Origin: an uncultured bacterium
Lineage (GTDB): Bacteria; Fidelibacterota; Marinisomatia; SCGC-AAA003-L08; TS1B11
Reading direction: 5' to 3'
Assembly: GCA_964595095.1 (NCBI GenBank)
Contig: CAZQOY010000001.1
Span: forward strand, 1 to 50,315
DNA length: 50,315 nucleotides
Shown piece after piece: positions 1,935 through 25,118 of the stretch; position 1 is the stretch's first letter; every line of letters begins with the position of its first letter. The notes beneath the pieces were generated by a model. It ran no database searches. It was not told where the DNA came from and worked only from the letters and a program-made list of their open reading frames with translations. A program made the position numbers and the translations under genes.

Positions 1935-1995
1935 ACCTCCAGCCTTAATCACCGGAATAGGTTAGAACGCAAGGCCAGGATTACCATGCCAGATT

Positions 1996-3459: not shown

Positions 3460-3479
3460 TATCCCCGATGCATCCTTTA

Positions 3480-4619: not shown

Positions 4620-4646
4620 AGACCTCCGTTTGCAGTCCCGCGGAAA

Positions 4647-5250: not shown

Positions 5251-5254
5251 GGAA

Positions 5255-5303
5255 CTTGGGACTTGGGACTTGAGGCTTGAGTCTTGAGACTTGAGGCTTG
5301 GGG
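5255..5303. repeat. tandem heptanucleotide repeat, 7 x CTTGRGN
   Basis: Plus strand reads cttggga cttggga cttgagg cttgagt cttgaga cttgagg cttgggg, followed by GCAG-rich 6-7-nt stutter (5310-5337). Confidence 0.85.
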
Positions 5304-5336
5304 CTGATATAGCGGCAGTAGCAGCGGCAGTTGGCA

Positions 5337-5398
5337 GGAAAAGAGAAAAGAAGACAAACCGCAAAGGACGCCAAGGGGAGTAGTGATTAGTTTGCGGT
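5337..5398 (-). terminator. possible intrinsic terminator after the lipoprotein gene
   Basis: On the minus strand ACCGCAAA (5398-5391) pairs with TTTGCGGT (5365-5358), followed by the T-rich TTGTCTTCTTTTCTCTTTTCC. The loop is long (25 nt), so this is weak. Confidence 0.35.
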
Positions 5399-5424
5399 GA
5401 ATCTCAATATTCAAAGGGAAAGCA

Positions 5425-6573: not shown

Positions 6574-6766
6574 TGTTTTGATCCCGCTTCTGCGAGGCGG
6601 TAAACCACCTCGCTTAGTCAAAGAAACCCCGCTGAAGCGGGCTGTCTGATGACGACAGGCGGCTTTAGCCGTCTTTTTTTGATTTAGCGAACTCATTTAT
6701 GGGTTCGCGGATGGCTTCGCATTAATGGGTTCTTCCCCCCCCCTCACGGCAACCCCTTCGACAGGC

Positions 6767-7528
6767 TCACGGCAGCCCCGACACATCAAAAATCAGCAGG
6801 CCGCTGTAGTACCCACCCGCCACATAGGCGTAGCTGCCAGAGACGAACACGCCATTGGCATAGCCCGGCGTATTGTAGCTGCCGGCCGGGGTGGGGCTGG
6901 CGGGGTTGGAAACGTTGATGACCTGCAGGCCGCTATTTTTATCCGCCACGTAGGCGTAGCTGCCGGAGACGAAGACGCCCTGGGCCCAACCCGGCGTGTC
7001 GTAAGTGCCCGCCAGGGTGGGGCTGGCCGCGTTGGAGACGTTGATGACCTGCAGGCCGTTGTAGTACCCATCCGCCACGTAGGCGTAGTTGCCGGAGACG
7101 AAGACGTCCCAGGCATAGCCCGGCGTATCGTAAGAGCTGGCCAAAATCGGCGCCCAAATGGTCAGGTACCGGGACTTTTCGGCATGGTTCCCCGCCTGAT
7201 CGTAGGCGATAGCCTTGAAAGTCTTCGTTCCGGCGCTTTGGCCGGAAATATCAAGGTCGGCCTTGTAGGGAGCTTTCGTGAACTCATGAATCGAGACGTT
7301 GTCCAGGAATAGTTCGACCTTGGCAACACTCCGGTTGTCGGTAGCATCTATATCACAGGAAAGCGTGCCGACACAGGAAGCATCTTCCCTGGGAGAAACG
7401 ATCTCGATCTCCGGCGGGAAGATATCGAAGAAGTCGCAGCGATATAGGGCGAGGGTCGCCAAGAACAGAAGTGGGAGTCTCCTGAAAGCCCTGGAGGGGA
7501 AAGCCGGTCTGTAGTGAGTTACCCCCAT
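6767..7528 (-). CDS. LVIVD-repeat protein with N-terminal Ig-like domain
   Basis: Three ~41-aa repeats of the form G.YDTPG.A.GVFVSG.YAYVAD...GLQVINVSN...P (LVIVD repeat signature). Confidence 0.75.
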
Positions 7529-13104: not shown

Positions 13105-15819
13105 ATGAGCAAAAGCAAATACGTATACTTCTTCGGCGATGGCAAGGCCGAAGGTTCCGCCGAAATGAAAGAGCTGCTCGGTGGCAAGGGGGCCAACCTG
13201 GCCGAGATGGCCAGCATCGGCCTGCCGGTGCCCGCCGGGTTCACGATCTCAACGGAGGTGTGCACTTATTTCAACGCGCATGACCGGACCTTCCCCTCTA
13301 CTCTGGCCGCAGAGGTGGACGCCGCCATCAAGCGCACTGAGAAACTGATGGGGCGGAGCTTCGGTGATCCGAAAGATCCCCTGCTGGTTTCTGGCAGGTC
13401 CGGCGCTCGCGCATCCATGCCGGGCATGATGGAAACCGTGCTTAATATCGGGCTTACCTCTAAGACCCTGCCGGGACTGATCGCCCGTACCAATAACGAG
13501 CGCTTTGCCTGGGACTGCTACCGGCGGCTCATCACCATGTACAGCGATGTGGTTATGGAAAAGGGCGCCGGGATCAGCCCGCCCGAGGGCCAGGGCATTC
13601 GCCAGCAGCTGGACCGGCTGCTTGAAGACGTGAAAAAGAGGCAGGGATACAACTTCGACTATCAGCTCACAGTTGCCGATTTGCAGCAGCTCACCGATGC
13701 CTATAAAACCAGGATCAAGGAGGTCCTGGGGGAGATCTTCCCAGACGATCCCATGGAGCAGCTCTGGGGCGGCATCGGGGCAGTGTTCGCTTCGTGGGAC
13801 GGCAAGCGCGCCGTCTCCTACCGCCGGATCGAGGGCATCCCTGATGACTGGGGCACGGCCGTCAACGTCCAGGCGATGGTCTACGGCAACCTGGGCGAAA
13901 ACTCCGCCACCGGGGTAGGCTTTACCCGCAACCCAGCCACCGGTGAGGATGCCTTCTTCGGCGAGTGGCTGCCCAACGCCCAGGGCGAGGACGTAGTGGC
14001 CGGCACCCGCACCCCCAACCCCCTTAACGAAGCCAGCCGCAACGAAGGCAACACCCTGCCATCCCTGGAGAAGCTCACGCCTCAACTATACCAGGAACTG
14101 GCAGGCTACCGGGATACACTGGAAGACCATTACACCGATATGCAGGACCTCGAGTTCACCATTGAGGATAAAAAGCTCTACATGCTCCAGACCCGGACCG
14201 GTAAGCGGAACGGGATGGCGGCTCTGCGCATGGCGGTGGAAATGTGCCAGGATGGGCTGATCGACAAAACCACGGCCATCCAGCGGGTGAAGCCCTCCCA
14301 GCTGGACGAGCTGCTGCACCCCATGGTGGACCCGTTGGAGGAGCGCTCGCACCGGCCCCTGGCCAAGGGCCTGCCGGCCGGTCCCGGCGGTGCTGTCGGC
14401 AAGATCGTCCTTACCCCCGACCGGGCCGAGGCACAAGCCAAAGAAGGCGAAAAGGTTATTCTGGTACGCGCAGAGACCAGCCCCGAGGATGTGCACGGTA
14501 TGCACGCCGCCGAGGCGATCCTCACCTCACGGGGCGGCATGACCAGCCACGCCGCCCTGGTGGCCCGCGGCTGGGGCAAGTGCTGCATCGTCGGCTGCTC
14601 TGCCCTTGAGATCAACATGGACCAGGGTGAAGTCCGGGTGGACGGCACCGTCCTGCGCGAAGGGGACGTCATCACCCTCAACGGCACCAAGGGACTGGTC
14701 TACCAGGGAGAGCTGCCCCTTATCGCCATTGACCAGGCTAAAAACGAGCACCTCAAGACCTTCCTGGAATGGTGTGATGAGGTCCGCACTCTGGGCGTGA
14801 GAGCCAACGCCGACAGCCCGGAGGACGCGCAACAGGCCCGGAGTCTCGGCGCCGAAGGGATCGGTCTGACCCGCACCGAGCACATGTTCTTCGAGCCTGA
14901 GCGTATCAAGTTCATGCGCCAGATGATCTTGGCGGATAATCCCGAACAGCGTCGGCAGGCCATCATGCAGCTGCTCCCGTTCCAAAAGGACGACTTCCGC
15001 GGCATTCTGCTGGCCATGGAGGGCCTGCCGGTGACCATCCGCCTGCTGGATCCGCCCCTGCATGAGTTCGTCCCCCACGAGAAGGACCAGCAGGTCAGTT
15101 TGGCCGGTGAGATGGAGCGCACACCGGAAGAGATTCGCGCCAGGGTTGAAGCGCTGCATGAGTTCAATCCCATGCTGGGACATCGGGGCTGCCGGCTGGG
15201 TATCAGCTACCCTGAGATCACCGAGATGCAGGCCCGGGCCATCCTGGAGGCGGCGGCCGAGCTGGTCAAGGAGGGCAAAGACGCCCGCCCGGAGATCATG
15301 GTCCCCCTGGTGGGGCATTTCAAGGAACTGGTCCACCAGCGGAAGATTATTGAGAAAGTCTATGAGGAAGTGCGGCAGAACATAGGAGAGATCCCCCACC
15401 TCTCTATCGGCACCATGATCGAGGTCCCCCGGGGCGCCATCACCGCCGATGAGGTGGCCGAGGTGGCCGACTTCTTCAGCTTCGGCACCAACGACCTCAC
15501 CCAGATGGCCTGCGGCTTCTCCCGGGACGATTCCGGCACGTTCCTGCCCCACTACATTGACTCGGGCATTTACCCCGATGATCCCTTCCAGAGCCTGGAT
15601 CAGACCGGTGTCGGCGAGCTGGTACGGATAGCCGTCGAAAAGGGACGCCGAGTGAAGCCACATCTCAAGCTGGGCGTCTGCGGGGAGCACGGCGGCGATC
15701 CCGACTCGGTCCATTTCTTCCATAAGGTGGGCCTGGACTACGTGAGCTGCTCGCCGTTCAGGGTGCCGGTGGCCCGTTTGGCGGCGGCCCAGGCGGTGCT
15801 GGAGGAAGGGAGGGGATAG
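13105..15819 (+). CDS. ppdK: pyruvate, phosphate dikinase
   Basis: 904 aa. N-terminus GDGKAEGSAEMKELLGGKGANLAEM, phospho-His region TSRGGMTSHAALVARGWGKCCIVG, and PEP-utilising C-terminal domain (GLTRTEHMF, FFSFGTNDLTQ). Confidence 0.97.
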   Translation: MSKSKYVYFFGDGKAEGSAEMKELLGGKGANLAEMASIGLPVPAGFTISTEVCTYFNAHDRTFPSTLAAEVDAAIKRTEKLMGRSFGDPKDPLLVSGRSGARASMPGMMETVLNIGLTSKTLPGLIARTNNERFAWDCYRRLITMYSDVVMEKGAGISPPEGQGIRQQLDRLLEDVKKRQGYNFDYQLTVADLQQLTDAYKTRIKEVLGEIFPDDPMEQLWGGIGAVFASWDGKRAVSYRRIEGIPDDWGTAVNVQAMVYGNLGENSATGVGFTRNPATGEDAFFGEWLPNAQGEDVVAGTRTPNPLNEASRNEGNTLPSLEKLTPQLYQELAGYRDTLEDHYTDMQDLEFTIEDKKLYMLQTRTGKRNGMAALRMAVEMCQDGLIDKTTAIQRVKPSQLDELLHPMVDPLEERSHRPLAKGLPAGPGGAVGKIVLTPDRAEAQAKEGEKVILVRAETSPEDVHGMHAAEAILTSRGGMTSHAALVARGWGKCCIVGCSALEINMDQGEVRVDGTVLREGDVITLNGTKGLVYQGELPLIAIDQAKNEHLKTFLEWCDEVRTLGVRANADSPEDAQQARSLGAEGIGLTRTEHMFFEPERIKFMRQMILADNPEQRRQAIMQLLPFQKDDFRGILLAMEGLPVTIRLLDPPLHEFVPHEKDQQVSLAGEMERTPEEIRARVEALHEFNPMLGHRGCRLGISYPEITEMQARAILEAAAELVKEGKDARPEIMVPLVGHFKELVHQRKIIEKVYEEVRQNIGEIPHLSIGTMIEVPRGAITADEVAEVADFFSFGTNDLTQMACGFSRDDSGTFLPHYIDSGIYPDDPFQSLDQTGVGELVRIAVEKGRRVKPHLKLGVCGEHGGDPDSVHFFHKVGLDYVSCSPFRVPVARLAAAQAVLEEGRG

Positions 15820-15983: not shown

Positions 15984-16538
15984 CTAGTGATGAGCAGGAA
16001 TTGCTTCTAGAGCAGGGACATGTTCCTCAAGTGTTGAGGTCTCTGGTACCTCAGTTAACAACTCCATAAGACGGTCCCACTTTCGCTTAAGATACTGCGC
16101 GGTTTCAATGGCTGCGAACAGATTCAATAGGGATATCTTCAACGTTGGATGACGATTTATGAAAAAGTACCCAAGAGCATAAATATATTTTTTGCGAATA
16201 TCTGCTAGAAATTTGTTAGAGGGCTTTTCCAGTTCGTGCTGTAAATACTCTCGCGCTGCAAGGAACCGGCGGTTTCGACGATAGGTTGCTGCAACAAAGA
16301 GTAGACGCCATAAATTAATATTCTTAAGATATCTTATGGTTTTCACAATAGAACTGTCTAAGTATTGGAATACCCAATTCTTCGGGTCGATTTCGCCTTT
16401 CAAGACAGCTTCTCGTAAATCGTCACGAAGTGCATAAAGAGCAAATTGGTGCTGCCGCACGATGGTATCGACACGCATCCTGCGCAGCCTATCAAGGAAA
16501 ATCAGCCCGAGAAGTGCAAATAACCAGAAGTATGCCAT
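15984..16538 (-). CDS. hypothetical N-terminally anchored helical protein (low-GC cassette, gene 2)
   Basis: 184 aa. N-terminal TM MAYFWLFALLGLIFL, then a helical K/R/L-rich body. No family recognised. Hand counts on two 60-nt lines gave about 30-45% G+C. Confidence 0.5.
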   Translation of the reverse strand: MAYFWLFALLGLIFLDRLRRMRVDTIVRQHQFALYALRDDLREAVLKGEIDPKNWVFQYLDSSIVKTIRYLKNINLWRLLFVAATYRRNRRFLAAREYLQHELEKPSNKFLADIRKKYIYALGYFFINRHPTLKISLLNLFAAIETAQYLKRKWDRLMELLTEVPETSTLEEHVPALEAIPAHH

Positions 16539-16567
16539 TGGTTAATCCCTCTTATGCGTTTTTATGC

Positions 16568-16972
16568 TTATGTGTGGTGTAGACCAATATCAATTTTACC
16601 TTCTTGATGATCACTCTTCCAGTCGGCAAGCCGCTTGATTTCATATTCTAGGACGCCAACTCTTTTCTTCCAGTGATAGCGTTGAGCTGCAAGCAACGCT
16701 GCAGCGATGATGCCGAGAATGATCAACGGATAAACCTCGGAAATTCCTACACCTAAAACATATTTCTCAATTATTGCTTGTTTTTGATCAGATGTCGCCC
16801 ATCGTTCAACGGATATGTACGCCAAGATTAGGAATGCTCCCGGCCAGCCAAATCTGTCAATGAGTACACTGAAAAGATCGATCACACCTGAAAGTAATTT
16901 TGAAAGATTCCCAGCTCTACGTCGACTCTTTCTTGATTTTTTTGGGGGGGTCTTAACTGAGGCTTGTCGCAC
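16568..16972 (-). CDS. hypothetical 2-TM protein with basic N-terminus (low-GC cassette, gene 1)
   Basis: 134 aa with a GTG start. N-terminus KTPPKKSRKSRRRAG. Two hydrophobic helices (WPGAFLILAYISV and VYPLIILGIIAAALLAA). No family recognised. Confidence 0.5.
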   Translation of the reverse strand: MRQASVKTPPKKSRKSRRRAGNLSKLLSGVIDLFSVLIDRFGWPGAFLILAYISVERWATSDQKQAIIEKYVLGVGISEVYPLIILGIIAAALLAAQRYHWKKRVGVLEYEIKRLADWKSDHQEGKIDIGLHHT

Positions 16973-17095: not shown

Positions 17096-18013
17096 CTACT
17101 CCACCATCTCACCACTCAGGATATCGGCTATATTGATCTGGCCCGCGGCCTGCATCTTGCGGACCTGCTCCATGACCGACCGCCGGGCTTCGCCGACTTC
17201 CCGCTTGGAAAGGGCTTCCTCCACCGGTTCGTACATGGCCTGCTTCTTGTCCGGCAGTACCTTTATGGCCTGTTCCACCGTCTCCTCATCAATCCCTTTA
17301 ACGGCACGAGCGAGAACGTCCAGATCCATCACGTTAAGGACGTCCCTGAGAACCTCATCCGGCAGTTGGAAAATATCATCGAAGGTGAGGTAGAAACGCT
17401 TAACCTCCTTATACAGCTCCGGATTGTCCTGGCTGAGCTTATCCATGAACAGGTCGGCCTGCTCTAAGGGCATCCGGCCCAACATGTCGGCCAGTTTCTC
17501 GCCGCCGCCGCGCTCAAACTCCGACGCCTTGGGCAGGTAGCGCGCTTTTTCCTGTAGGTCAGCGGCAACGGTCGCTACGGCTTCCAGATTCAGGGCGTCG
17601 GTGTCGCCCAGCTCCATCAGGGCCTCGATCCGCTGATTGTGATCAAGGCGCTCGTAAATCTTCATCTGGCGCTCAGGACCCAACTGGGCCAGAACGATCC
17701 CCATGATCGCAGGGGGCTCCGCCAGTATCAAGTAACCGATTTGTTCATCAGACAGCTTATCCAGGAAAGCGAATGGTTTACGTGAATCGCCCTTGGATTC
17801 CCTGAACTTCTCCGTCAGGGAACTGAAATAGAACTCTTCCAGTACGGCTTTCTTGACCTTAAAGGGTACACCCGTCAGCTCCCTTGCCCGAACTCGAATC
17901 TTGCGCAGATCGGTATCACTGAGCTCCTTGAAAATGGTTACAGCCAGACCGTCACCCAGCACTTGGAACAGGATGGCGGACTTGTCTAGACCCGATAAAC
18001 CGGCATATTCCAT
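17096..18013 (-). CDS. fliG: FliG-family rotor/switch protein
   Basis: 305 aa. N-terminus LSGLDKSAILFQVLGDGLAVTIFKELSDTDLRKI. C-terminus FYLTFDDIFQLPDEVLRDVLNVMDLDVLARAVKGIDEETVEQAIKVLPDKKQAMYEPVEEAL...EARRSVMEQVRKMQAAGQI follows the FliG_M/FliG_C pattern. The ATG lies 1 nt after the upstream stop and GAGGAG lies inside the upstream gene. Confidence 0.75.
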   Translation of the reverse strand: MEYAGLSGLDKSAILFQVLGDGLAVTIFKELSDTDLRKIRVRARELTGVPFKVKKAVLEEFYFSSLTEKFRESKGDSRKPFAFLDKLSDEQIGYLILAEPPAIMGIVLAQLGPERQMKIYERLDHNQRIEALMELGDTDALNLEAVATVAADLQEKARYLPKASEFERGGGEKLADMLGRMPLEQADLFMDKLSQDNPELYKEVKRFYLTFDDIFQLPDEVLRDVLNVMDLDVLARAVKGIDEETVEQAIKVLPDKKQAMYEPVEEALSKREVGEARRSVMEQVRKMQAAGQINIADILSGEMVE

Positions 18014-18014
18014 G

Positions 18015-19745
18015 CTAGGACTCCTCTTCCTTCCCCTCCTGCAGGACCGCGGCTACGTCCGAAGCATCCTCGCTCTCAGGGGCGGCCACTTCTTCTTCCG
18101 GCTGCACTTCTTTCTGCTGGAGCCAGTCATTAATTATACGCGTGGCCGATTCTGGCCGGCCCACACTCATGGAGACCACCGACTGCCGTATGGACTTGAC
18201 TTCCGAGCGTAGTACCTCGGGGTCCTCTTCCACCTGGCTTGGGATGGGCCCTTTAGCTGCGGCTGGACTTACCTCCTCTGCCTCAGGAGTTGCCGCAGCC
18301 TCCTCTTTGGGTGCCGCTTCTTCCACCTCAGGAGCCGGCTTTACCTTCATGGGTTTGGCCTCCTCGGCAGTTTCTACCGGCTTGACTCTCTTTTTAACCT
18401 TCTTCCGCGGTTCGGTGGTGGGGCGTGGTGCCGGCCTGCGGCGCGGATAGGGCGCTGGACCGGGATAGACCATCCTCACGGGCGCTGTCTGGGCACGGCC
18501 GCGGGCGGCAGCTAAAACGATTACAACTATAACCAGAACCACCAGCAGTACTAATCCCACCAGCAGCAGGGCATTGTTTCCCAACACGCTCAGGCCCCGC
18601 GGCGGGGGTTGTTCCTTAGTGAGGGCCGCCTCGATCTGGGCCTGAAGTCGCTCTTTCTCGGTCTCAAAGGCCAGGCGCATGGCGTTCAGCGAATCCTCCA
18701 GGGAAGCGGCCTGGAGCGAGATGATGTCCTGCTCATCGGGAGGTAGCCGACCTGATGTGAGGTCCTTGCGCATCTCGTCGATCTGGGTGAGGAGCGCTTC
18801 CTGAAGCCTGGCGTTCTGATCTTCCCGCTGCTGCTGCAGAAAGATGAGGTCCCTGGCGCGTTCATTCTGCACCTGGGCCAGGTCGGCCAGGGCCTGTTTG
18901 CGTTCCTCCTCGGATCGCTGCAGGTACTCCAGCTCCCGCTCGCGCAGCTCTTTCATGAGCTCTTCGTTGCGGATCTGGACCTCCTTGAGTTTCTCCTGCA
19001 GCGCTTCTGTCTGCTCTATCTGTACCTGTGTAACGGGCAGATCGGCATCGGCCAGATACGAAGAAGGGCGGCGATCCTTGAAGGAGGCGGTAGTAATGGA
19101 GAGCAAATCGCCGCGGTCGCGGTCAAAGCGTGAGGCTACAAGTGCCACCTGGCGTACATTTTCAATAATTTGAGGAGACACGCCATCTTCCAGGATAATA
19201 CTGATGTCCAGGGACTTGATACTGGGCAGACCACCAGTAGTTTCGGTAGTCTCGGTGATCTCTGCCGCGCCGGGAACCAGCTCCGCTTCGATGGCTGCTT
19301 CTTCTTCCGTCAGCAAAGGCTCAGCCTCATCCAGGGTACGAATCGGTTCACCCTCTTCGATCATCTCCACGTCCGGGAAGCCTGGTATCGGGAATGGGTT
19401 GGTTACGGTCTTCCGGGCACGCTCAGCCTCAGTGCTGGGTACGGCGCCCTCCAGCTGGCGGCTTGCAGCCGCAGGGTCACTACCCCTGACCAAGCGCCCG
19501 TCGGGTGTGCGATAAACCTTTTCCACCTGGCGGGCCGAAGTGAATGCCAGATCGACTTTGACATTTACCACAAACCGGGATTCATCCAGAATCTTGGATA
19601 TTGCGTTAGTAACTCTCTGCTGAATCGTGTTTTCCAGCAGGAGCTTCTGGGATAGATAGCCCGACTCCTGGCTCCTGACCAGGGAAGCAATCCCTGCCAA
19701 TAAAACCAACAGCGTTACAGGTAACAATGCTGTGCGTAGACGCAT
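18015..19745 (-). CDS. divergent FliF-like MS-ring protein with inserted coiled coil
   Basis: Two-TM FliF topology. FliF-like islands are LLLENTIQQRVTNAISKILDESRFVVNVKVDL, IKSLDISIILEDG..VALVASRFDRDRGDLLSITTASF and the C-terminal RPESATRIINDWLQQ. A long E/Q/R/L coiled coil lies between the RGD segment and TM2. Confidence 0.55.
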   Translation of the reverse strand: MRLRTALLPVTLLVLLAGIASLVRSQESGYLSQKLLLENTIQQRVTNAISKILDESRFVVNVKVDLAFTSARQVEKVYRTPDGRLVRGSDPAAASRQLEGAVPSTEAERARKTVTNPFPIPGFPDVEMIEEGEPIRTLDEAEPLLTEEEAAIEAELVPGAAEITETTETTGGLPSIKSLDISIILEDGVSPQIIENVRQVALVASRFDRDRGDLLSITTASFKDRRPSSYLADADLPVTQVQIEQTEALQEKLKEVQIRNEELMKELRERELEYLQRSEEERKQALADLAQVQNERARDLIFLQQQREDQNARLQEALLTQIDEMRKDLTSGRLPPDEQDIISLQAASLEDSLNAMRLAFETEKERLQAQIEAALTKEQPPPRGLSVLGNNALLLVGLVLLVVLVIVVIVLAAARGRAQTAPVRMVYPGPAPYPRRRPAPRPTTEPRKKVKKRVKPVETAEEAKPMKVKPAPEVEEAAPKEEAAATPEAEEVSPAAAKGPIPSQVEEDPEVLRSEVKSIRQSVVSMSVGRPESATRIINDWLQQKEVQPEEEVAAPESEDASDVAAVLQEGKEEES

Positions 19746-19763
19746 CAGGGACTCCTGTGTGAG

Positions 19764-20474
19764 TTAGCCGATCGCAAGAAAAGTAATTTCCACCCGACGG
19801 TTTGCCGATCGAAGTTCTTCCGAGCTGTTTTCAGCCCGCACATACTCTTCGGTTATGTCCCCCCCCCGAGATTCAAACCAGCTGGTGCCGGCGGGGATCC
19901 ATTCGGCAAAGCCCACAGCCCGGAGCTTGCCTCCCGGCACGCCTCTTTCAATACAGTACCTGACTACACTGGCTGCCCGCGCAGCCGACAGCTCCCAGTT
20001 GGAGGGATATTTCCCAACCCAGGCCTCGGGAATGGGCAGATTATCCGTATGGCCTTCCACGGCGATGGGAAACCTGTTGCCCTCGTCCATCATGATGGGG
20101 ATAATGCTGTTAAGAAAGGGGTATATCACCGTCTTGAGGTCCGCGCTGCCGGACTCAAAGGCGAAGCGGCTGTCAATGGTAATACTGGTCCCTTTCGGGC
20201 TGTGGGTAACCTCGGCAACGTTCTGCATCTGCGTCTGCTCGATGGCCTCCAGGACCTCATCCCGGATCTCACTCTGGGTCTTCATTTGCCGCCTCTCTCT
20301 GCGCGCCCCCGTCGCACTTTCCTCCATGGCGGCCGCCATGTCGGCCATCTTCACCGGGTCCAGCGTTGACATGGAGAAGAGCAGGACGAAAAAGGTCATC
20401 AGGAGCGTCATCATATCGGCGAAGGTCGCGAAGTACTCGGGCAGGCCTTCGTCTACTCGCTTCTTGATAGCCAT
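19764..20474 (-). CDS. motB: flagellar-stator-type MotB (OmpA-like peptidoglycan-binding C-terminus)
   Basis: The YFATFADMMTLLMTFFVLLFSMS TM carries the conserved Asp. OmpA-like C-terminus: FESGSADL, VEGHTDN, SNWELSAARAASV and NRRVEI. Confidence 0.85.
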   Translation of the reverse strand: MAIKKRVDEGLPEYFATFADMMTLLMTFFVLLFSMSTLDPVKMADMAAAMEESATGARRERRQMKTQSEIRDEVLEAIEQTQMQNVAEVTHSPKGTSITIDSRFAFESGSADLKTVIYPFLNSIIPIMMDEGNRFPIAVEGHTDNLPIPEAWVGKYPSNWELSAARAASVVRYCIERGVPGGKLRAVGFAEWIPAGTSWFESRGGDITEEYVRAENSSEELRSANRRVEITFLAIG

Positions 20475-20483
20475 AGTAGTCTC

Positions 20484-21293
20484 CTAAGCTCCTGCTCCAG
20501 GTTCCATTCTCTTCCACTCGCGCGGTGGAATAAAGGAATTGATTTTCTCGCGCACGATCAGGGGATGCTTTTTCATCTGCAGCAGGCAGACCCCTTCAGT
20601 GATCATGTTCTGCTGGGTGCTCTTGCTGGAGACCTGGGTGAGGAGCTTTTCGGCCATCGGCAGGAAGAACAGGTTGGCCAGCAGCGCCCCGTAGAAGGTA
20701 GTGATCAGGGCGGTGGCCATACCGCTACCTATGGCGCCGGCCATATCCGCGCCGCCGCCCTCAGCGCTCATGCCCTTGAGCATGAATACCAGGCCGATGA
20801 GCGTACCGATAATACCGAAAGCCGGCGAGAACTTGCCCATGGCCTTGAACAGGTTAGCTTCCGTCATTTCCCTTTCCTCGCGGTATTCAACCCGGGTCCC
20901 CAGGATGTCACGAATCTCTTCAACCGAATAACCGTCCACCACCATTTGAAGGCCGTCTTTAAGGAAGGGATTTCGAACCCGGTCAAGGGCGTCTTCCAGG
21001 TCTTTGGGCCCCTTGCGGGCTACGGTACCCATATCAACAATCTCATCCACCAGGGGCCCGAGATCTTCTTTCCCGCCTTTGAAAACCGCACGCAGGATGG
21101 TAAATATGCGCATAACCTCCTTGAGGGGAAATGCGACGGACGTGGCTGCCAGGGTGCCACCAAGGACGATCATGAATGATATCGGCTCCGCAAACACTAT
21201 GAAACTAGTCTCCGACTGTATCGCCTGCATTCCAATGGCGCCGCCTATCAGGCCGACACCAACCAGAACACCGATAATGGTTGCAAAATCCAT
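20484..21293 (-). CDS. motA: flagellar-stator-type MotA/PomA proton-channel protein
   Basis: 269 aa with 2+2 TM and a large cytoplasmic loop. FLKDGLQMVVDGYSVEEIRDIL...FKAMGKFSPAFGIIGTLIGLV..ALITTFYGALLANLFFLPMAEKL closely parallels B. subtilis MotA as I recall it. Confidence 0.85.
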   Translation of the reverse strand: MDFATIIGVLVGVGLIGGAIGMQAIQSETSFIVFAEPISFMIVLGGTLAATSVAFPLKEVMRIFTILRAVFKGGKEDLGPLVDEIVDMGTVARKGPKDLEDALDRVRNPFLKDGLQMVVDGYSVEEIRDILGTRVEYREEREMTEANLFKAMGKFSPAFGIIGTLIGLVFMLKGMSAEGGGADMAGAIGSGMATALITTFYGALLANLFFLPMAEKLLTQVSSKSTQQNMITEGVCLLQMKKHPLIVREKINSFIPPREWKRMEPGAGA

Positions 21294-21302
21294 ATGACCC
21301 CG

Positions 21303-22691
21303 CTACTGTAGTTTAAGAGATGTTGTTTTAATGCGACCCTCTTTCAGTCCCCGGAGAATATTACGAACGTCGTCATATTCCGGGTCGAGTTTCAATGCCA
21401 GGTTCCAGTTAATCGTGGCACGCTGTACATCTCCCAACTTGAAATATATCGAACCCCGGCGGGCATATGCAATGGCTAGATCGGGGTTGAGCTGAATAGC
21501 CATTTCCACTTCCTGAAGCGCATCCCGGAAGTTCCCCTGGTAAAAATGGGTCCAACAGGCGGTAAGGTGGCGCATGGTATAATTCATATTCGATTTCATC
21601 ATCTGAATGCGCAGCTGCATATTGCGCGTCGAGTCAGCCAGGAACACGCCCTGCTGTTCAAGCATAGCCACCTGACTGTGCAGGTTGTCGATCTCGAAGG
21701 TGGCAATGCGCAGTGAGTCGCGCAGGGATGCCAGGAGAAAGTCCGCCGCCTGCAAGGTGGAATCCAGTTGGCTTGCCAGAAGTTCCCCCACATCTTCGGG
21801 TTCAATCCTTGCCCCCATAGCCGCTATCTCACCCTCGGCCCTGCCGACCGCCGGCCTTTTCTCAAGACGGGGCACGGATAGATTCAATCCAATCACAATT
21901 GCCGGCGGGGCGGACACACTGTCCGCCGTGCTGCCGAATTGTGGCAGGCTTTCCGCGTGAACAAGACCGACCTGGAGGCGATAATCGGAAGTAATTGGGA
22001 TTCGCACTCCAATATTTATCCCGTGCCCATCAAATTCTCCCATCACATCCAGGCCGCCTTTGCTGGCGAATATTGGCGTTTTCAACAGAAAACCGGCGTA
22101 GACGCCCAGCGTTAATTGGCCGGAGGGCTCGGACCCGTTACCGTCCGTTTCAAAACCACCGCCGGAGGTATCGGAAGCCGCCGCCGTGGCTCCCGCCAGG
22201 GCACCGGTGCCAAAGCCCATGTAGGAATTCAGCAAATAGCGTCCCACCTTTTGCTCGCTGGAAATAACGCCAAGAAAAGAGAGCAGATCGGAGTCCATTT
22301 CCAGTTTGCCGTTGGACTGGGTAAGCACAATGTCATGCAGACCAAGCGAGAAGCTGATATTCCCGTAGGCCCACAACCGCTGCTGCAGGTGGAAACCGAT
22401 CTCCAGGGTAGTGTCAATAGTTGATATCGACGACATACCCAGACGCAGCCGGGATATCTCCGAGTCGAAATAAATGCCGGTGGCGCTGTTGTATGGGGAG
22501 ACGTCCACTATTTCAGTGACAAAGCCTGCGCTGAACAGGTAGGGCGAGCGGACCACCGAGCTCATGGGAATCCGCATCATGGTTCCCGGCCGACTGTAGG
22601 ACAACCGTGAAATACCCTGAGCCGACTCCCACGTAAGCGTGATGAGAACGGCGAGTAAAATGACTGGCCAGTATCTACGGGTTTCGTACAT
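21303..22691 (-). CDS. secreted beta-rich (outer-membrane-like) + coiled-coil + TPR protein
   Basis: Signal-like N-terminus. About 270 aa with alternating hydrophobic beta-strand-like patterning, then a coiled coil, then C-terminal TPR (YQGNFRDALQEVEMAIQLNPDLAIAYARRGSIYFKLGDVQRATINWNLALKLDPEY). Confidence 0.6.
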   Translation of the reverse strand: MYETRRYWPVILLAVLITLTWESAQGISRLSYSRPGTMMRIPMSSVVRSPYLFSAGFVTEIVDVSPYNSATGIYFDSEISRLRLGMSSISTIDTTLEIGFHLQQRLWAYGNISFSLGLHDIVLTQSNGKLEMDSDLLSFLGVISSEQKVGRYLLNSYMGFGTGALAGATAAASDTSGGGFETDGNGSEPSGQLTLGVYAGFLLKTPIFASKGGLDVMGEFDGHGINIGVRIPITSDYRLQVGLVHAESLPQFGSTADSVSAPPAIVIGLNLSVPRLEKRPAVGRAEGEIAAMGARIEPEDVGELLASQLDSTLQAADFLLASLRDSLRIATFEIDNLHSQVAMLEQQGVFLADSTRNMQLRIQMMKSNMNYTMRHLTACWTHFYQGNFRDALQEVEMAIQLNPDLAIAYARRGSIYFKLGDVQRATINWNLALKLDPEYDDVRNILRGLKEGRIKTTSLKLQ

Positions 22692-22699
22692 TATGTATT

Positions 22700-23566
22700 C
22701 TAAAAGCGGTTTAACTCCTTGATGGTCAGCTCCGCCAAGCGCTGGTATTCGCTGGTCGGATACTTGCTGAGAATGGTCTGGAACTGGGTGCGTGCCTCCC
22801 GGACTCTTCCCTGTCTCAAATAAATCAGCCCCTGCAGAACGACGGCATCATCTCCCAGCTCATGATCAGCAGCCAGTACCTTTTCCAAGGCCAGCAGGGC
22901 CTCATCGAACTGACCTTGGTGAAAATAGGCATCAGCGCGCCAGTAGGCCATGTGGACCAGCTCTTCCGGGCTGAAGGCCGATTTGTCTATAACCTGGCAC
23001 AGCCTGATCAGGTCATCAAGTCGCCCGGCCCGATAGGCCTGAAGCAGGTGGCGAAATCCGGGATTGTCCGGCAGCGGCGACCGGGCCGTCTCTTCAGAAA
23101 AAGGCTCCACCCTAACCGGTGCATTCTCCACTGCCTGAGCGACTTCGCTTTCCTTGCGAACAGACTGGATCTTCCTGATCAAGCTCCGCAAACGCTCGTT
23201 CTCCAGCCGCACAGCTTCCACGTCCTGGTCTAATGAACTCTCTAACGAATTGATCTTCCCACTCAGATCATCCAGGGCTGACCGCAGCTCCCTGGTGGAT
23301 TCAATGTAAGCCGCACCAGGGGGTTCTTTCCCCACCATCAGATCAACACTACCCATCGCAGGCAGAGAGTCCGCCCCGGCGGCAGAGTCCTGGCGGCCGG
23401 GCTCGATGATAATGCCCAGGTCCATAAGGTAGACATCTTCATCCTGCTTGTCCTGGGCAGCCAGGTCACTTCCGGGGCTAAAAAATACACTGATTGCCAG
23501 CATCACCATAAGCCAGCCGGCGGGTGGTGCGGCAAATGCTCCTTTTCTCCAGCGCTTATACCCCAT
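22700..23566 (-). CDS. CpoB/YbgF-like coiled-coil + TPR periplasmic protein
   Basis: The track ORF starts at a TTG at 23671. The ATG at 23566 gives MGYKRWRKGAFAAPPAGWLMVMLAISVFF (signal). It continues with a coiled coil (LSGKINSLESSLDQDVEAVRLENERLRSLIRKIQ), then TPRs ending in ILSKYPTSEYQRLAEL, as in YbgF. Confidence 0.6.
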   Translation of the reverse strand: MGYKRWRKGAFAAPPAGWLMVMLAISVFFSPGSDLAAQDKQDEDVYLMDLGIIIEPGRQDSAAGADSLPAMGSVDLMVGKEPPGAAYIESTRELRSALDDLSGKINSLESSLDQDVEAVRLENERLRSLIRKIQSVRKESEVAQAVENAPVRVEPFSEETARSPLPDNPGFRHLLQAYRAGRLDDLIRLCQVIDKSAFSPEELVHMAYWRADAYFHQGQFDEALLALEKVLAADHELGDDAVVLQGLIYLRQGRVREARTQFQTILSKYPTSEYQRLAELTIKELNRF

Positions 23567-23667
23567 GCAACCTACAATTGCATCCTGCAAAAAGATAGTC
23601 CTATTGCACACCGGAGTAGGGGCGTATAGCAATACGCCCTTACACAAGGACATTACATAAGCAGGAA

Positions 23668-24639
23668 TCAATAGTAGTCTTCCCAGTCAATGGTATAGGA
23701 ATAGCCGATGTAACTGCCAAAGGATCTGGCCACGGGTAACTCGAAGGTTGCAGTAGCACCTGGAAGCAGGGAAGCGTCCGAAGTAACACCCGACTCAAAA
23801 GTGTGGAAGGAACCTTTGACGAACGTAGTCAGGGTCTTGGTATTGCCGCTCCAGTCCTTCCTAAAAACAAAATTCACTTTAACGAAGTCGGCACGCCGGC
23901 CGCCGATATTCTTTACCTCACCCCGGTATTTCAGGTTTCCCGAACGGTCCTTGGATTCGGCGATGGTCCCTACCAGGACCACATTGGGGGCATAGGCGGT
24001 TTTGGCGGCCCTTGTGGCCGGTCCGGTAGGCCTGGTTGCCACAACAGAGGGCTCCACCACCCGGTTGGCCGGTGAGGGGGGTGGCACGGACAGGCTTTCA
24101 GCGGCTCCCAGTGCGGCAGACCCTACCAGCGGCTCTTCGGGGATATTTTCCACGATGCGTACTACGGAAGGACGCTCTATAATAAGGTAACCGATAAGTG
24201 TTTCAACCCTGAGTATTTTCTCGTCCTGATAAACGATTTTCCCGAAGATGGTGCTGCCGTTGTCCAGTATGATCTCTTTACTGTAGATGGTCAGGGGATT
24301 GGCCCACATGGTGCTCTTGGCCTGAAGGTCCCGCAGCTCCGAGGCCAGATGGTTTACATCAGCACCCAGTTTCTTGACCTCAAAGTTGAGCTCATTGAGG
24401 ACATAGCTTTCGGTGGAACCGGGAGCAGCTGGCTGCTCCTCTCCGGTCGGAACACCAGGGGGCGCCATCTCTCCAGGTGGTACCTCGGCGGCCCGCGCAG
24501 AATCGCCTTCCGCCACTAGTTCGGTCTCTTTGGCGGCCTGTTCTTCAGCAGCTTCCTTCCTGGCGCGGCGCCCAGCGCAACCATCCAGGACAGCTAACGC
24601 CATGACCAGGATCAGCAGCTTTAAGTAGATGTTTTTCAT
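23668..24639 (-). CDS. lipoprotein (Pro-rich linker, coiled coil, C-terminal beta domain)
   Basis: MKNIYLKLLILVMALAVLDGC lipobox. No family recognised. First gene of the seven-gene operon. Confidence 0.6.
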   Translation of the reverse strand: MKNIYLKLLILVMALAVLDGCAGRRARKEAAEEQAAKETELVAEGDSARAAEVPPGEMAPPGVPTGEEQPAAPGSTESYVLNELNFEVKKLGADVNHLASELRDLQAKSTMWANPLTIYSKEIILDNGSTIFGKIVYQDEKILRVETLIGYLIIERPSVVRIVENIPEEPLVGSAALGAAESLSVPPPSPANRVVEPSVVATRPTGPATRAAKTAYAPNVVLVGTIAESKDRSGNLKYRGEVKNIGGRRADFVKVNFVFRKDWSGNTKTLTTFVKGSFHTFESGVTSDASLLPGATATFELPVARSFGSYIGYSYTIDWEDYY

Positions 24640-24665: not shown

Positions 24666-24695
24666 ATTATACTGCAAGCAAAGCAACTTTCCCAA
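24666..24695 (-). promoter_or_regulatory. candidate sigma70-like promoter of the 24639->17096 operon
   Basis: On the minus strand TTGGGA (24695-24690), 18 nt, then TATAAT (24671-24666), which lies 26 nt upstream of the lipoprotein ATG. Confidence 0.35.
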
Positions 24696-25118
24696 TTGTT
24701 TAAAAAATGTAGTTGTCGTCTCATCGAATGTCAAGGTTTTTCAGCAGATTTTCCACTTTTCTTGAAGTAATACTTTCAGCGTATTCTACCCCCAAAACCG
24801 GGAATATTCCGCCCCGCAGAACCCCAGGAGGTATTAAAAAAGGAAACCCGCGTTTGTCCGCTGTTCATCCCGCTTTGCTCCTGATGTGATCTGGAGCACA
24901 AATCGTGCCAGGGGCAGGGTGAGAATACTTCTCCCTCGGCAAAAGCGGGTTTTGTGCAGCTCATGACAGCTAATAGGTTTACGACGATGGGAGGAATTGC
25001 CCGCAGGAGTGGCCATCTGGTCGGTCGATCAAGACACGGCCTGCCTGACGCCAGAAGTCAGAAGCCCTACCGCGAGGGGGAGGGCTTCCTGCGCTTCCTT
25101 CAAGATCAGATCTGGAGA

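What the first reader, a model, noticed from the sequence alone, without database searches (positions are those of the whole stretch)
17096..24639. Seven-gene operon couples a minimal rotor-stator set (MotA, MotB, FliF-like, FliG-like) to TPR, beta-rich and lipoprotein envelope proteins, with no other flagellar genes in the window
Seven minus-strand CDSs run from 24639 to 17096. The gaps between them range from an overlap up to about 100 nt. In order they are:
- an LDGC-lipobox lipoprotein
- a CpoB/YbgF-like coiled-coil plus TPR protein
- a secreted beta-rich, coiled-coil and TPR protein
- a flagellar-type MotA with 2+2 TM helices and a large cytoplasmic loop
- a MotB with the conserved Asp helix and an OmpA-like domain
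- a FliF-like protein
- a FliG-like protein whose ATG lies 1 nt after the FliF-like stop

Canonical loci place fliF-fliG with fliE, fliH, fliI and fliJ. They place motAB elsewhere, or with che or fliMN genes. Here no C-ring (FliM/N), export gate (FlhA/B, FliPQR), rod, hook or flagellin gene occurs anywhere in 50 kb. The operon partners look like Tol-Pal CpoB or spirochaete-collar-type TPR proteins instead.

The locus is therefore one of two things. It may be an unusually organised flagellar sub-operon, or it may be a flagellum-independent ion-driven rotor-stator envelope machine. The second option would be new biology.
Basis: partly seen in the sequence, partly recalled or inferred. Interest (0 to 1): 0.8.

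Follow-up and report, generated by a model that had tools for sequence, protein, structure and literature searches.

The report
Flagellar motor core without a flagellum
A seven-gene operon conserved across the abundant ocean phylum Fidelibacterota (SAR406/Marinimicrobia) encodes the torque-making core of the flagellar motor (MotA/MotB stator, FliG, a stripped-down FliF) together with outer-membrane TPR proteins, in bacteria whose surveyed genomes show no other flagellar parts, so it is probably an undescribed ion-driven envelope machine.

Summary
Seven tightly packed minus-strand genes (24639-17096) encode a lipoprotein, a periplasmic coiled-coil/TPR protein, an outer-membrane beta-barrel with a long helix and TPR, a flagellar-type MotA, a MotB, a FliF-like protein and a FliG-like protein.

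- **Organism and conservation:** it is a Fidelibacterota. The block keeps the same order in every one of about 60 species-level genomes whose contig spans it, and all seven genes are under purifying selection (dN/dS 0.10-0.27).
- **Rotor proteins are trimmed:** FliF-like keeps only the RBM3 ring domain and lacks RBM1/RBM2, which in FliF surround the export gate. FliG-like keeps three domains and most torque-helix charges but has lost the EHPQR FliM-binding motif.
- **No other flagellar genes found:** none in the window or in 1.38 Mb of related flanks. In a published HMM screen, 14 Marinisomatota MAGs show fliG in 9, fliM in 0 and fliN in 0.
- **Relatives elsewhere:** proteobacterial MAGs carry natural FliF::FliG fusions next to a TPR lipoprotein, some also next to MotAB.

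Best reading: a flagellum-independent rotor-stator machine coupled to the outer membrane. Rotation and output are inferred, and whole genomes could not be scanned. No prior description was found.

The parts
24666..24734 (-). Two sigma-70-like promoter matches in the 480-nt gap upstream of gene 1; putative operon promoter
   Evidence: TTGACA-17-TACATT (24734-24706) and TTGGGA-18-TATAAT (24695-24666). These are consensus matches only. The promoter type used by this phylum is unknown.
23668..24639 (-). Gene 1: lipoprotein (lipobox LDGC) with an acidic/Pro-rich linker, a coiled-coil helix, an SH3-like beta domain and a C-terminal beta-sandwich. In other clades the N-terminus is a signal peptide plus a CarboxypepD_reg domain.
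   Evidence: (alignment A4, about 70 invariant columns). dN/dS 0.15-0.16.
22700..23671 (-). Gene 2: periplasmic protein with a signal peptide, the conserved motif (F/Y)(F/L)xDLGI(V/I)IEP, a coiled coil and C-terminal TPR repeats. The likely true start is the ATG at 23566.
   Evidence: A5. It is the most divergent member (23-30% identity between clades) but always sits at this position.
21303..22691 (-). Gene 3: predicted outer-membrane beta-barrel (about 13 strands, residues ~50-275), a long helix (306-385) and a TPR domain (388-451)
   Evidence: AlphaFold model with pLDDT 74. Foldseek matches OpcA, OmpG, a designed 12-strand barrel and FapF at E 5e-5 to 1e-3. TPR Pfam hits. The helix+TPR part matches the TPR lipoproteins next to FliF::FliG fusions at E 1e-13 to 1e-23.
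20484..21293 (-). Gene 4: flagellar-type MotA (stator A subunit) with 2+2 TM helices and a large cytoplasmic loop
   Evidence: Full-length match to Clostridium sporogenes MotA (6YSF/8UCS) at 3e-44. Invariant R93, E100, P157 and P212; three correspond to E. coli E98, P173 and P222, and R93 lies one position from R90.
19764..20474 (-). Gene 5: MotB with one TM helix carrying Asp20 (E. coli Asp32), a plug region and an OmpA-like peptidoglycan-binding domain
18015..19745 (-). Gene 6: FliF-like rotor membrane protein. In order: TM1, an RBM3-like domain with a disordered insertion carrying the invariant NPFPIPGFP motif, a conserved periplasmic coiled coil (residues 240-376), TM2 (391-416), a basic Pro-rich tail, and two C-terminal helices with invariant W541 that resemble the FliG-binding end of FliF. 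No RBM1/RBM2.
   Evidence: PF08345, 27.5 bits. Alignment A2. Model. The Foldseek top 10 are all FliF S-ring/RBM3 structures at E 0.04-0.4. C-terminal comparison with E. coli FliF.
17096..18013 (-). Gene 7: FliG-like protein with N, M and C domains. EHPQR is replaced by E-P-P-A...E, the Gly-Gly linker is kept, and the torque helix carries K239, K256/K257, E262, E265 and R271.
   Evidence: Profile against PDB FliG 3HJL, full length, E 1e-33. Residue mapping. dN/dS 0.07-0.10.

Best explanation
The operon encodes a self-contained, flagellum-independent rotor-stator machine that spans the cell envelope.

**Shown**
- A flagellar-type MotA/MotB ion channel with all its catalytic and peptidoglycan-anchoring hallmarks.
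- A three-domain FliG-like protein.
- A two-TM FliF-like protein reduced to the RBM3 ring domain plus a FliG-binding-like tail.
- Three envelope partners, one of them a predicted outer-membrane barrel carrying a helix and a TPR domain.
- The whole set is inherited as a fixed block under purifying selection across Fidelibacterota.

**Inferred**
- FliF-like forms an inner-membrane ring through RBM3.
- Its C-terminal helices hold a ring of FliG-like subunits.
- Peptidoglycan-anchored MotA5B2 units, driven by H+ or Na+ flow, push on the FliG-like torque helix and turn the ring.
- With no RBM1/RBM2, no export gate, no FliM/FliN and no rod, the torque is not passed to a filament.
- Instead it acts through the periplasmic part of FliF-like (the conserved coiled coil and the PG-phi-P loop motif) on the TPR proteins anchored in or near the outer membrane (genes 1-3).
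- The most likely output is movement or remodelling of outer-membrane or surface components, in the manner of gliding or Tol-like energy transfer. The output itself is unknown.
For: **Domain assignments:**

**Functional residues kept**
- MotA R93, E100, P157, P212 and MotB D20 are invariant or nearly so in about 70 orthologues.
- FliG-like K239, K257, E262, E265 and R271 are invariant.
- FliF-like ends in IR...P...I..W, as E. coli FliF does.

**Conservation**
- 155 GTDB species genomes carry a relative. In the 80 loci fetched, plus 4 fetched earlier, the seven genes keep the same order wherever the contig reaches, while the flanks differ.
- dN/dS is 0.10-0.27 for all seven genes.

**Independence from a flagellum**
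- RBM1/RBM2 are absent from FliF-like.
- EHPQR is lost from FliG-like.
- tblastn with 39 E. coli flagellar and chemotaxis proteins finds only motA, motB and fliG in 1.38 Mb.
- In PMC10359470 supplementary file 4, 14 Marinisomatota MAGs have fliG 9/14, fliM 0/14, fliNY 0/14 and cheA/B/R 0/14. All 7 MAGs that are at least 78% complete have fliG.

**A wider family**
- About 48 natural FliF-like::FliG-like fusions (580-724 aa) appear in Pseudomonadota and 'Deltaproteobacteria' MAGs.
- They group with the Fidelibacterota proteins, apart from canonical FliG, in a rough neighbour-joining tree.
- They share the E-x-P-R/K substitution and the PG-phi-P loop motif.
- They sit next to a TPR lipoprotein like the gene 3 C-terminus, and in two loci next to MotA-MotB.
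Against: - Nothing here shows ring formation, rotation or an output.
- The FliF relationship is weak. It rests on a 27.5-bit Pfam hit, no PDB sequence hit for the family profile, Foldseek E 0.04-0.4, and a model with pLDDT about 55-70 in that domain.
- In the FliG-like torque helix, E. coli D289 is replaced by an invariant Pro and R297 is not aligned exactly.
- MotA R93 is offset by one residue from E. coli R90.
- Absence of flhA, fliPQR, flgE and fliC from whole genomes was not tested. The MAG evidence covers only fliM, fliN and che genes in 14 incomplete MAGs of one class.
- One paper states that Marinimicrobia MAGs carry 'flagellar assembly' genes without listing them.
- In one closed genome (CP070787.1) the block is broken and gene 3 is partial, so it is dispensable at least there.
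- Whether the only isolate, non-motile Fidelibacter multiformis, carries the module is unknown.
Confidence: 0.6

Rival explanations
1. The proteins assemble, but the machine is not rotary. The FliF-like/FliG-like assembly is a static platform that docks and gates MotAB-type ion channels. It would act as an envelope tether, a force or PMF sensor, or a Tol-Pal-like energiser of outer-membrane proteins through the TPR partners.
For: - The partners resemble Tol-Pal accessories in architecture: coiled coil plus TPR, with weak TIGR02795/CpoB hits.
- The torque helix is altered (D289 to Pro).
- No FliM/FliN switch is present.
- In two fusion loci motAB is not adjacent.
Against: - MotA is of the flagellar type over its full length, including the cytoplasmic domain that contacts FliG (3e-44 to 6YSF), with the conserved Arg and Glu.
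- TolQ scores only E 0.02.
- The RBM3 fold is a ring-building module.
- All known 5:2 stators work by rotation (established knowledge, cited in PMC12505986).
Confidence: 0.2
2. It is an unusually arranged sub-operon of a real flagellum whose other genes lie elsewhere in the genome.
For: - JGI annotation calls the proteins FliG and FliF.
- One paper says Marinimicrobia MAGs carry flagellar assembly genes.
- Flagellar genes are often scattered.
- I could not scan whole genomes.
Against: - FliF-like has no RBM1/RBM2 to house an export gate.
- FliG-like has lost the FliM-binding EHPQR motif.
- fliM and fliN are absent from 14 of 14 Marinisomatota MAGs, while 9 have fliG.
- No flagellar gene lies within 10 kb in 84 loci.
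- TIGR00207 and TIGR00206 equivalog cut-offs are missed by a wide margin.
- The only isolate of the phylum is non-motile (PMC11652737).
Confidence: 0.07
3. It is a decaying relic of an ancestral flagellar motor with no present function.
For: - Non-functional flagellar remnants are known in several lineages (PMC12199754).
- The block is broken in one closed genome.
Against: - All seven ORFs are intact, with dN/dS 0.10-0.27.
- Order is fixed across lineages that share only about 45% FliG-like identity.
- Catalytic residues are invariant.
- The non-flagellar partners co-evolve with the block.
- A parallel fused family exists in other phyla.
Confidence: 0.05

Closest known systems
Core of the bacterial flagellar motor (FliF MS-ring, FliG, MotA5B2 stator)
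   Same: The four proteins are homologous. MotA/MotB are of the flagellar type with the ion-path and rotor-contact residues. FliG has three domains. FliF keeps RBM3 and a C-terminal tail resembling the FliG-binding end. fliF-fliG adjacency is kept.
   Different: There is no RBM1/RBM2 and no EHPQR motif. No FliM/FliN, export apparatus, rod, hook or filament was found in what could be searched. FliF-like has a 135-residue conserved periplasmic coiled coil and a PG-phi-P loop where FliF has its beta-collar. motAB lies in the same operon, upstream of fliF.
Periplasmic scaffolds of high-torque motors (Campylobacter PflA/PflB, spirochaete collar FlcA-C, Vibrio MotX/MotY and FlgO/P/T). Named from my own knowledge, not tested.
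   Same: TPR or Sel1-repeat and outer-membrane-associated proteins surround a rotor-stator core. The 352-377 aa proteins in fusion loci give weak FlgO hits (E 8.5e-4 and 6e-3).
   Different: No sequence match of genes 1-3 to those families was found. Here the scaffold proteins accompany a motor with no axial structure.
Tol-Pal system with CpoB/YbgF
   Same: A MotAB-family ion motor is linked to outer-membrane proteins through periplasm-spanning coiled-coil and TPR proteins.
   Different: The stator is MotA/MotB type, not TolQ/TolR (TolQ E 0.02). There is no TolA, TolB or Pal. Gene 2 scores 34.7 bits against a cut-off of 90.1 for YbgF. A FliG/FliF rotor is present.
GldLM/PorLM motor of the type IX secretion and gliding system
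   Same: An ion-driven 5:2 motor in an FCB-group bacterium transmits force across the periplasm to outer-membrane components. One fusion locus carries a PorP/SprF-like barrel.
   Different: No GldL or GldM homology was found. Torque would be taken up by a cytoplasmic FliG ring rather than by a periplasmic GldM shaft.
Partial flagellar gene sets in non-flagellated bacteria (Lysobacter enzymogenes FT3SS-like system, PMC7688988; Buchnera basal bodies, PMC8109811)
   Same: A subset of flagellar genes is retained and apparently put to another use.
   Different: Those retain the type III export part. This module retains the opposite half, the torque generator, and none of the export part.
Engineered FliF-FliG fusion proteins (Vibrio, PMC11481574; PDB 8Z4D/8Z4G)
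   Same: They show that a covalent 1:1 FliF-FliG chain can still form an S-ring. The natural fusions found here have the same layout.
   Different: The natural fusions carry only RBM3, belong to a separate FliG clade, and sit next to a TPR lipoprotein (two of them also next to motAB) away from flagellar genes.
Zorya anti-phage system (ZorAB)
   Same: A MotAB-family channel used outside motility.
   Different: ZorA scores only 17-18.5 bits, against 155 bits for flagellar MotA. There is no ZorC or ZorD, and no long ZorA tail.

Membership tests
Flagellar-type stator MotA/MotB (the 'FIT' group of PMC12505986) | MotA with 4 TM helices and an expanded cytoplasmic torque-generating domain | tested here: met
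   Full-length alignment to C. sporogenes MotA 6YSF/8UCS at 3e-44, residues 5-260. TM segments at 1-25, 30-57, 154-177 and 193-214.
Flagellar-type stator MotA/MotB (the 'FIT' group of PMC12505986) | Conserved rotor-contact charges (E. coli MotA R90, E98) and channel prolines (P173, P222) | tested here: met
   R93 (one-residue offset from R90), E100, P157 and P212 are invariant in 68 orthologues.
Flagellar-type stator MotA/MotB (the 'FIT' group of PMC12505986) | MotB with the conserved TM Asp, a plug and an OmpA-like peptidoglycan-binding domain | tested here: met
   D20 corresponds to E. coli D32. MotB_plug 3.7e-15, OmpA 2e-13, NRRVE motif.
Flagellar-type stator MotA/MotB (the 'FIT' group of PMC12505986) | Score above the curated NCBIfam equivalog cut-offs for MotA/PomA/MotP and MotB/MotS | tested here: not met
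   Best MotA score is 181.5 bits against a cut-off of 394. Best MotB score is 125.8 against 283.
FliG (flagellar motor switch protein) | Three domains: FliG_N, FliG_M and FliG_C | tested here: met
   Pfam 1.4e-13, 1.5e-6 and 1.6e-18. Family profile against A. aeolicus FliG 3HJL, residues 1-300, E 1e-33.
FliG (flagellar motor switch protein) | EHPQR motif of FliG_M that binds FliM | tested here: not met
   E125/H126/P127/Q128/R160 map to E99/P100/P101/A102/E134. The family consensus is E-x-P-R/K, against EHPQ in 66 canonical FliG proteins.
FliG (flagellar motor switch protein) | Charged residues of the torque helix (E. coli K264, R281, D288, D289, R297) | tested here: inconclusive
   K239, K256/K257 and E262 are kept or conservatively replaced. 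D289 becomes an invariant Pro263. R297 is not aligned, though K270/R271 lie next to it.
FliG (flagellar motor switch protein) | Score above the TIGR00207 equivalog cut-off | tested here: not met
   98.8 bits against 226.7. NCBI names relatives only 'FliG C-terminal domain-containing protein'.
FliF (MS-ring protein) | RBM1 and RBM2 (Pfam PF01514, YscJ_FliF) | tested here: not met
   No PF01514 hit. The RBM3-like domain starts about 30 residues after TM1, which leaves no room for RBM1/RBM2.
FliF (MS-ring protein) | RBM3/S-ring domain (PF08345) | tested here: met
   27.5 bits against a cut-off of 23.8, covering the whole profile. The ten best Foldseek matches are all FliF S-ring structures, but at E 0.04-0.4 and from a low-confidence model.
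FliF (MS-ring protein) | Two TM helices flanking the periplasmic part, and a C-terminal FliG-binding segment | tested here: inconclusive
   The TM helices are clear. The C-terminus forms two helices and shares the pattern IR..P...I..W with E. coli FliF. There is no significant sequence match to PDB FliF peptides. Binding was not modelled.
Complete bacterial flagellum | C-ring proteins FliM and FliN in the same genome | tested here: not met
   Absent from the window and from 1.38 Mb of flanks. fliM 0/14 and fliNY 0/14 in Marinisomatota MAGs (PMC10359470 supplementary file 4). The MAGs are incomplete and belong to one class.
Complete bacterial flagellum | Export gate (FlhA/B, FliPQR), rod, hook and filament genes in the same genome | not testable with these tools
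   Only flanks of up to 10 kb could be read, and none was found there. Whole chromosomes CP070638.1, CP070656.1 and CP070787.1 could not be fetched.
Tol-Pal / CpoB (YbgF) | TolQ/TolR-type stator and a YbgF equivalog | tested here: not met
   TolQ E 0.02. YbgF 34.7 bits against 90.1. CpoB E 0.0046 against a cut-off of 383 bits.
Zorya defence system | ZorA with a long tail, ZorB, and ZorC/ZorD or ZorE | tested here: not met
   ZorA 17-18.5 bits only. There are no hits for the other five proteins. The ZorB hits reflect general MotB homology.

The most novel reading that the evidence does not exclude
This is a free-standing rotary engine of a new class. A FliG/RBM3-FliF rotor is turned by MotAB without any type III secretion core, and its work is delivered to outer-membrane TPR and barrel proteins. 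It is present across SAR406 and, as single-chain FliF::FliG rotors, in scattered Proteobacteria.

If its FliG and MotA branch outside rather than inside the flagellar clades, it would be a living example of a rotor-stator module that exists independently of the export apparatus. That bears directly on how the flagellar motor was assembled in evolution.
Probability: 0.4. Interest if true: 0.92.

Novelty: new variant of a known kind. Interest (0 to 1): 0.8.

Why it matters
- **Ecology.** SAR406/Fidelibacterota is among the most abundant bacterial groups of the dark ocean, and almost nothing is known of its cell biology. FliG hits in its MAGs can be read as 'motility genes' in surveys, and that reading may be wrong. 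At least one paper credits Marinimicrobia MAGs with flagellar assembly genes without listing them.
- **Mechanism.** All other known uses of 5:2 ion motors outside the flagellum (Ton, Tol, Gld, Agl, Zorya) lack FliG. A FliG rotor without a flagellum would be a new way of using the torque interface.
[quoted passage not shown] It also offers a test of whether the rotor-stator pair can work apart from the type III export core.

Tried and rejected
1. **Direct test for flagellar genes in whole Fidelibacterota genomes.** This was not possible. The single genome-contig scan went to mapping the module, and loci are limited to 10-kb flanks. I substituted tblastn over 1.38 Mb of flanks and a published MAG table.
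2. **Literature search for a prior description.** None found this module. They returned only general remarks on rotor proteins in non-motile species (PMC12199754) and engineered FliF-FliG fusions.
3. **Supplements checked for Marinimicrobia flagellar genes.** The supplements of PMC12199754 and PMC8163782 held nothing usable.
4. **PDB sequence searches.** FliF-like, alone or as a profile, gave no FliF hit. Gene 3 gave only TPR hits, and gene 1 only the CarboxypepD_reg/NOMO-like N-terminal domain of relatives.
5. **Source record of the window.** An exact-sequence look-up found nothing.
6. **The two small ORFs downstream (15984-16972).** They are not conserved in any related locus and were dropped from the module.
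7. **Zorya, Tol-Pal and Ton identities for the stator.** Rejected on scores.
8. **IS insertion as the cause of the broken block in L009.** Rejected: the neighbours are an Nramp transporter and a glycoside hydrolase.
9. **The neighbour-joining tree.** It is rough, with no support values and no root, so I draw no conclusion on whether the clade is derived from flagellar FliG or is sister to it.

Full report
**1. The observation**

The window carries seven co-oriented minus-strand ORFs between 24639 and 17096. The gaps are 8-18 nt, and the FliG-like ATG lies 1 nt after the FliF-like stop. The exception is the junction of genes 1 and 2. There the longest ORF (TTG at 23671) overlaps gene 1 by 4 nt, but orthologue N-termini point to the ATG at 23566, which gives a gap of about 100 nt. 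A 480-nt gap with two sigma-70-like matches precedes gene 1. No other flagellar gene is encoded among the window ORFs of at least 90 aa that were scanned against Pfam. The neighbours are pyruvate phosphate dikinase, a TonB-dependent receptor, GH32, a sulfatase, ProRS and panC/panD. tblastn with E. coli flagellar proteins also finds none anywhere in the window.

**2. The proteins**

- **MotA (20484-21293).** It matches PF01618 and, over its full length, flagellar MotA/PomA/MotP models (1e-47 to 1e-53) and C. sporogenes MotA structures (3e-44). R93, E100, P157 and P212 are invariant in 68 orthologues. E100, P157 and P212 map to E. coli E98, P173 and P222; R93 is offset by one residue from R90.
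- **MotB (19764-20474).** It has the plug, Asp20 (E. coli D32) and an OmpA-like domain.
- **FliG-like (17096-18013).**
  - It has all three FliG domains, and its family profile aligns end to end with A. aeolicus FliG 3HJL (E 1e-33).
  - The Gly-Gly linker is kept, and so are several torque-helix charges (K239, K256/K257, E262, E265, R271).
  - E. coli D289 is an invariant Pro, and the EHPQR motif that binds FliM reads E-P-P-A...E.
- **FliF-like (18015-19745).**
  - It passes the Pfam threshold only for PF08345, the RBM3/S-ring part (27.5 bits against 23.8), and has no PF01514.
  - Its layout in order: TM1; an RBM3-like alpha/beta domain split by a disordered acidic loop carrying the invariant NPFPIPGFP; a strongly conserved coiled coil at 240-376 (pLDDT above 90); TM2; a basic Pro-rich stretch; and two C-terminal helices.
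  - The C-terminal helices end in a pattern, IR..P...I..W, close to the FliG-binding end of E. coli FliF.
  - The model is poor in the RBM region, yet its ten best Foldseek matches are all FliF S-ring structures at E 0.04-0.4.
  - Sequence searches of the PDB give no FliF hit, so this is the weakest assignment.
- **Gene 3 (21303-22691).** The model (pLDDT 74) shows about 13 long antiparallel strands that match outer-membrane barrels (OpcA, OmpG, a designed 12-strand barrel, FapF; E 5e-5 to 1e-3). An 80-residue helix and a TPR domain follow.
- **Gene 2.** It has a signal peptide, a conserved DLGI(V/I)IEP motif, a coiled coil and TPR repeats. Its likeness to YbgF/CpoB falls far below the cut-off.
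- **Gene 1.** It is a lipoprotein here. In other clades it is a secreted protein with a CarboxypepD_reg domain. Both forms share a highly conserved coiled coil, an SH3-like domain and a C-terminal beta-sandwich.

**3. Organism and conservation**

- Every close homologue of the FliG-like, FliF-like and gene 3 proteins comes from Fidelibacterota (Marinimicrobia, SAR406, GTDB Marinisomatota), down to about 45% identity.
- A scan of one genome per GTDB species found 155 genomes with a relative. The 80 best loci include three closed chromosomes.
- tblastn shows genes 1-7 in the same order and orientation wherever the contig reaches; about 60 loci hold all seven. The flanking genes differ, and the two small ORFs downstream in the window are not conserved.
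- Against the closest relatives with unsaturated dS (0.3-0.7), dN/dS is 0.10-0.27 for all seven genes.
- In one closed genome (CP070787.1) the block is interrupted and gene 3 is annotated as partial elsewhere.

**4. Is there a flagellum?**

I could not read whole genomes. The indirect evidence is consistent.

- FliF-like lacks RBM1/RBM2, the parts that in FliF surround the export gate.
- FliG-like lacks the FliM-binding motif.
- tblastn with 39 E. coli flagellar and chemotaxis proteins against the window plus 84 Fidelibacterota loci (1.38 Mb) and six fusion loci detects only motA, motB and fliG.
- A published HMM screen of oxygen-deficient-zone MAGs (PMC10359470, supplementary file 4) lists, for the 14 Marinisomatota MAGs I could read, fliG in 9, fliM in 0, fliNY in 0 and cheA/B/R in 0.
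  - All seven MAGs of at least 78% completeness have fliG.
  - Krumholzibacteriota and Latescibacterota MAGs in the same table have all three motor genes.
- The only isolate of the phylum is non-motile (PMC11652737), but I do not know whether it has the block.
- One paper reports 'flagellar assembly' genes in Marinimicrobia MAGs without detail. The four genes described here would account for that statement.

**5. A wider family**

- A profile search of 1.84 billion representative proteins with the FliG-like family returned the Fidelibacterota clusters first. Next came about 48 proteins of 580-724 residues whose C-terminal 300 residues are a complete FliG-like protein. These score above canonical FliG.
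- Their N-terminal halves have a signal/TM segment, a weak PF08345 match, a PG-phi-P loop motif (LPGLP) and a second TM helix. They are natural FliF-like::FliG-like fusions.
- Named members come from Saccharospirillaceae/Pseudomonadales, Pseudomonadota and 'Deltaproteobacteria' MAGs.
- Six loci were read, five of them distinct.
  - Two distinct loci read: 352-377 aa protein, TPR lipoprotein, fusion, MotA, MotB.
  - Two read: TPR lipoprotein, fusion, a protein of about 210 aa.
  - One adds a TraF/PorP-SprF-like barrel.
- The TPR lipoproteins match the helix+TPR end of gene 3 (E 1e-13 to 1e-23), and the MotA/MotB match genes 4 and 5 (1e-38 to 1e-51).
- Fusions and Fidelibacterota proteins share the E-x-P-R/K replacement of EHPQ. 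In a rough neighbour-joining tree they fall on one side of a split from 61 canonical FliG proteins.

**6. Mechanism**

- **Shown.** The parts list, the retained functional residues, the membrane topology, the conservation, and the loss of the interfaces to FliM and to the export gate.
- **Inferred from established flagellar biology.**
  - RBM3 builds a ring.
  - The FliF-like tail holds a FliG-like ring.
  - Peptidoglycan-anchored MotA5B2 units turn that ring by ion flow.
- **Further inferred.**
  - With no rod, the moving part seen by the periplasm is the FliF-like coiled coil and loop.
  - The TPR domains of genes 2 and 3 are natural receptors for such a Pro-rich peptide.
  - Gene 3 would then link the ring to the outer membrane, either as a bearing or scaffold, or as the driven element.
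- I put 0.6 on a flagellum-independent rotor-stator machine of this kind. The nature of the output (surface movement, outer-membrane maintenance, secretion) is open.

**7. Comparison with known systems**

[quoted passage not shown] It fails the defining tests for membership of a flagellum (no FliM/FliN, no RBM1/RBM2, no EHPQR) and misses the curated equivalog cut-offs for FliG, FliF and MotA/B.
- It is not Tol-Pal, Ton, Gld or Zorya on scores.
- It is the mirror image of the reduced sets of Lysobacter, and Buchnera, which keep the export half.
- Engineered FliF-FliG fusions that still form S-rings (PMC11481574; PDB 8Z4D and 8Z4G appear) make the natural fusions plausible as rotors.

**8. Novelty and limits**

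- Ten literature searches found no description of this module or of natural FliF::FliG fusions. The library is not exhaustive.
- I rate it a new variant of a known kind, with a substantial chance that it deserves to be called a new class of envelope machine.
- Main limits:
  - no whole-genome check;
  - weak FliF homology;
  - no complex modelling;
  - no rooted phylogeny;
  - no expression or structural data.

Noticed in passing
L085 10001-11920; L086; L087; L088 5349-7283; L089; L090 (proteins P0319, P0323, P0329, P0341, P0358, P0380 and others): Natural single-chain FliF-like::FliG-like fusion proteins (580-724 aa; about 48 clusters at 50% identity) occur in Pseudomonadota and 'Deltaproteobacteria' MAGs. 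Each sits next to a TPR lipoprotein, and in two distinct loci next to MotA-MotB, away from flagellar genes.
   Followed up: partly
window 18015-19745, residues 114-122 (NPFPIPGFP); fusions P0319, P0323, P0329, P0341: A (F/L/I)PG(F/L/I)P motif in the disordered loop inserted in the RBM3-like domain is invariant in Fidelibacterota and recurs (LPGLP, LPGIP) in the distant fusion family. It is a candidate ligand for the co-occurring TPR domains.
   Followed up: no
L009 (CP070787.1, closed chromosome), 1-7000: The block is broken. MotA, MotB, FliF-like and FliG-like are intact, but genes 1 and 2 are missing upstream, where an Nramp transporter and a glycoside hydrolase lie instead. Gene 3 is annotated as partial about 400 genes away (JSW54_12365 against JSW54_10290).
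   Followed up: partly
L031 and L060 (contigs PBTS01000039.1 and PBTS01000042.1 of MAG NP55): One MAG carries two copies of the module on separate contigs. This is either a true duplication or two strains binned together.
   Followed up: no
L075 (labelled Terriglobia MAG, 2.5 kb); P0449 (labelled Woesearchaeota); P0058 and P0122 (labelled Calditrichaeota); Fu_MAG_26 in PMC10359470: Marinimicrobia-type FliG-like or FliF-like genes appear on short contigs assigned to unrelated taxa, including archaea. This is most likely mis-binning or mislabelling. It can create false fliG calls in surveys.
   Followed up: no
L085 8243-9301; L089 8168-9301: The 352-377 aa secreted proteins at the head of two fusion loci give weak hits to FlgO, a Vibrio H-ring lipoprotein family (E 8.5e-4 and 6e-3, below the cut-off).
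   Followed up: no
L088 7303-8715: A TraF_2/PorP-SprF-like outer-membrane barrel gene directly follows a FliF::FliG fusion gene. This hints at a link with type IX secretion or gliding-type outer-membrane proteins.
   Followed up: no
L090 8456-8797: A PilZ-domain gene lies divergently upstream of a TPR-fusion pair in the 'Deltaproteobacteria' locus. It could mean c-di-GMP control.
   Followed up: no
window 15984-16972: Two small ORFs (134 and 184 aa; a TM segment is predicted in the 134-aa one) lie just downstream of the FliG-like gene. They have no Pfam hit and no counterpart in any related locus.
   Followed up: yes
window 43335-43640: A 101-aa fragment of a transposase/integrase core (rve_3, rve_2) lies next to a GH32 gene. 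It is a probable IS remnant.
   Followed up: no
window 13105-15819; L001 18081-20783: A pyruvate phosphate dikinase gene lies within a few kb downstream of the module in both the window and a relative with 46% FliG-like identity, although the rest of the flanks differ.
   Followed up: no
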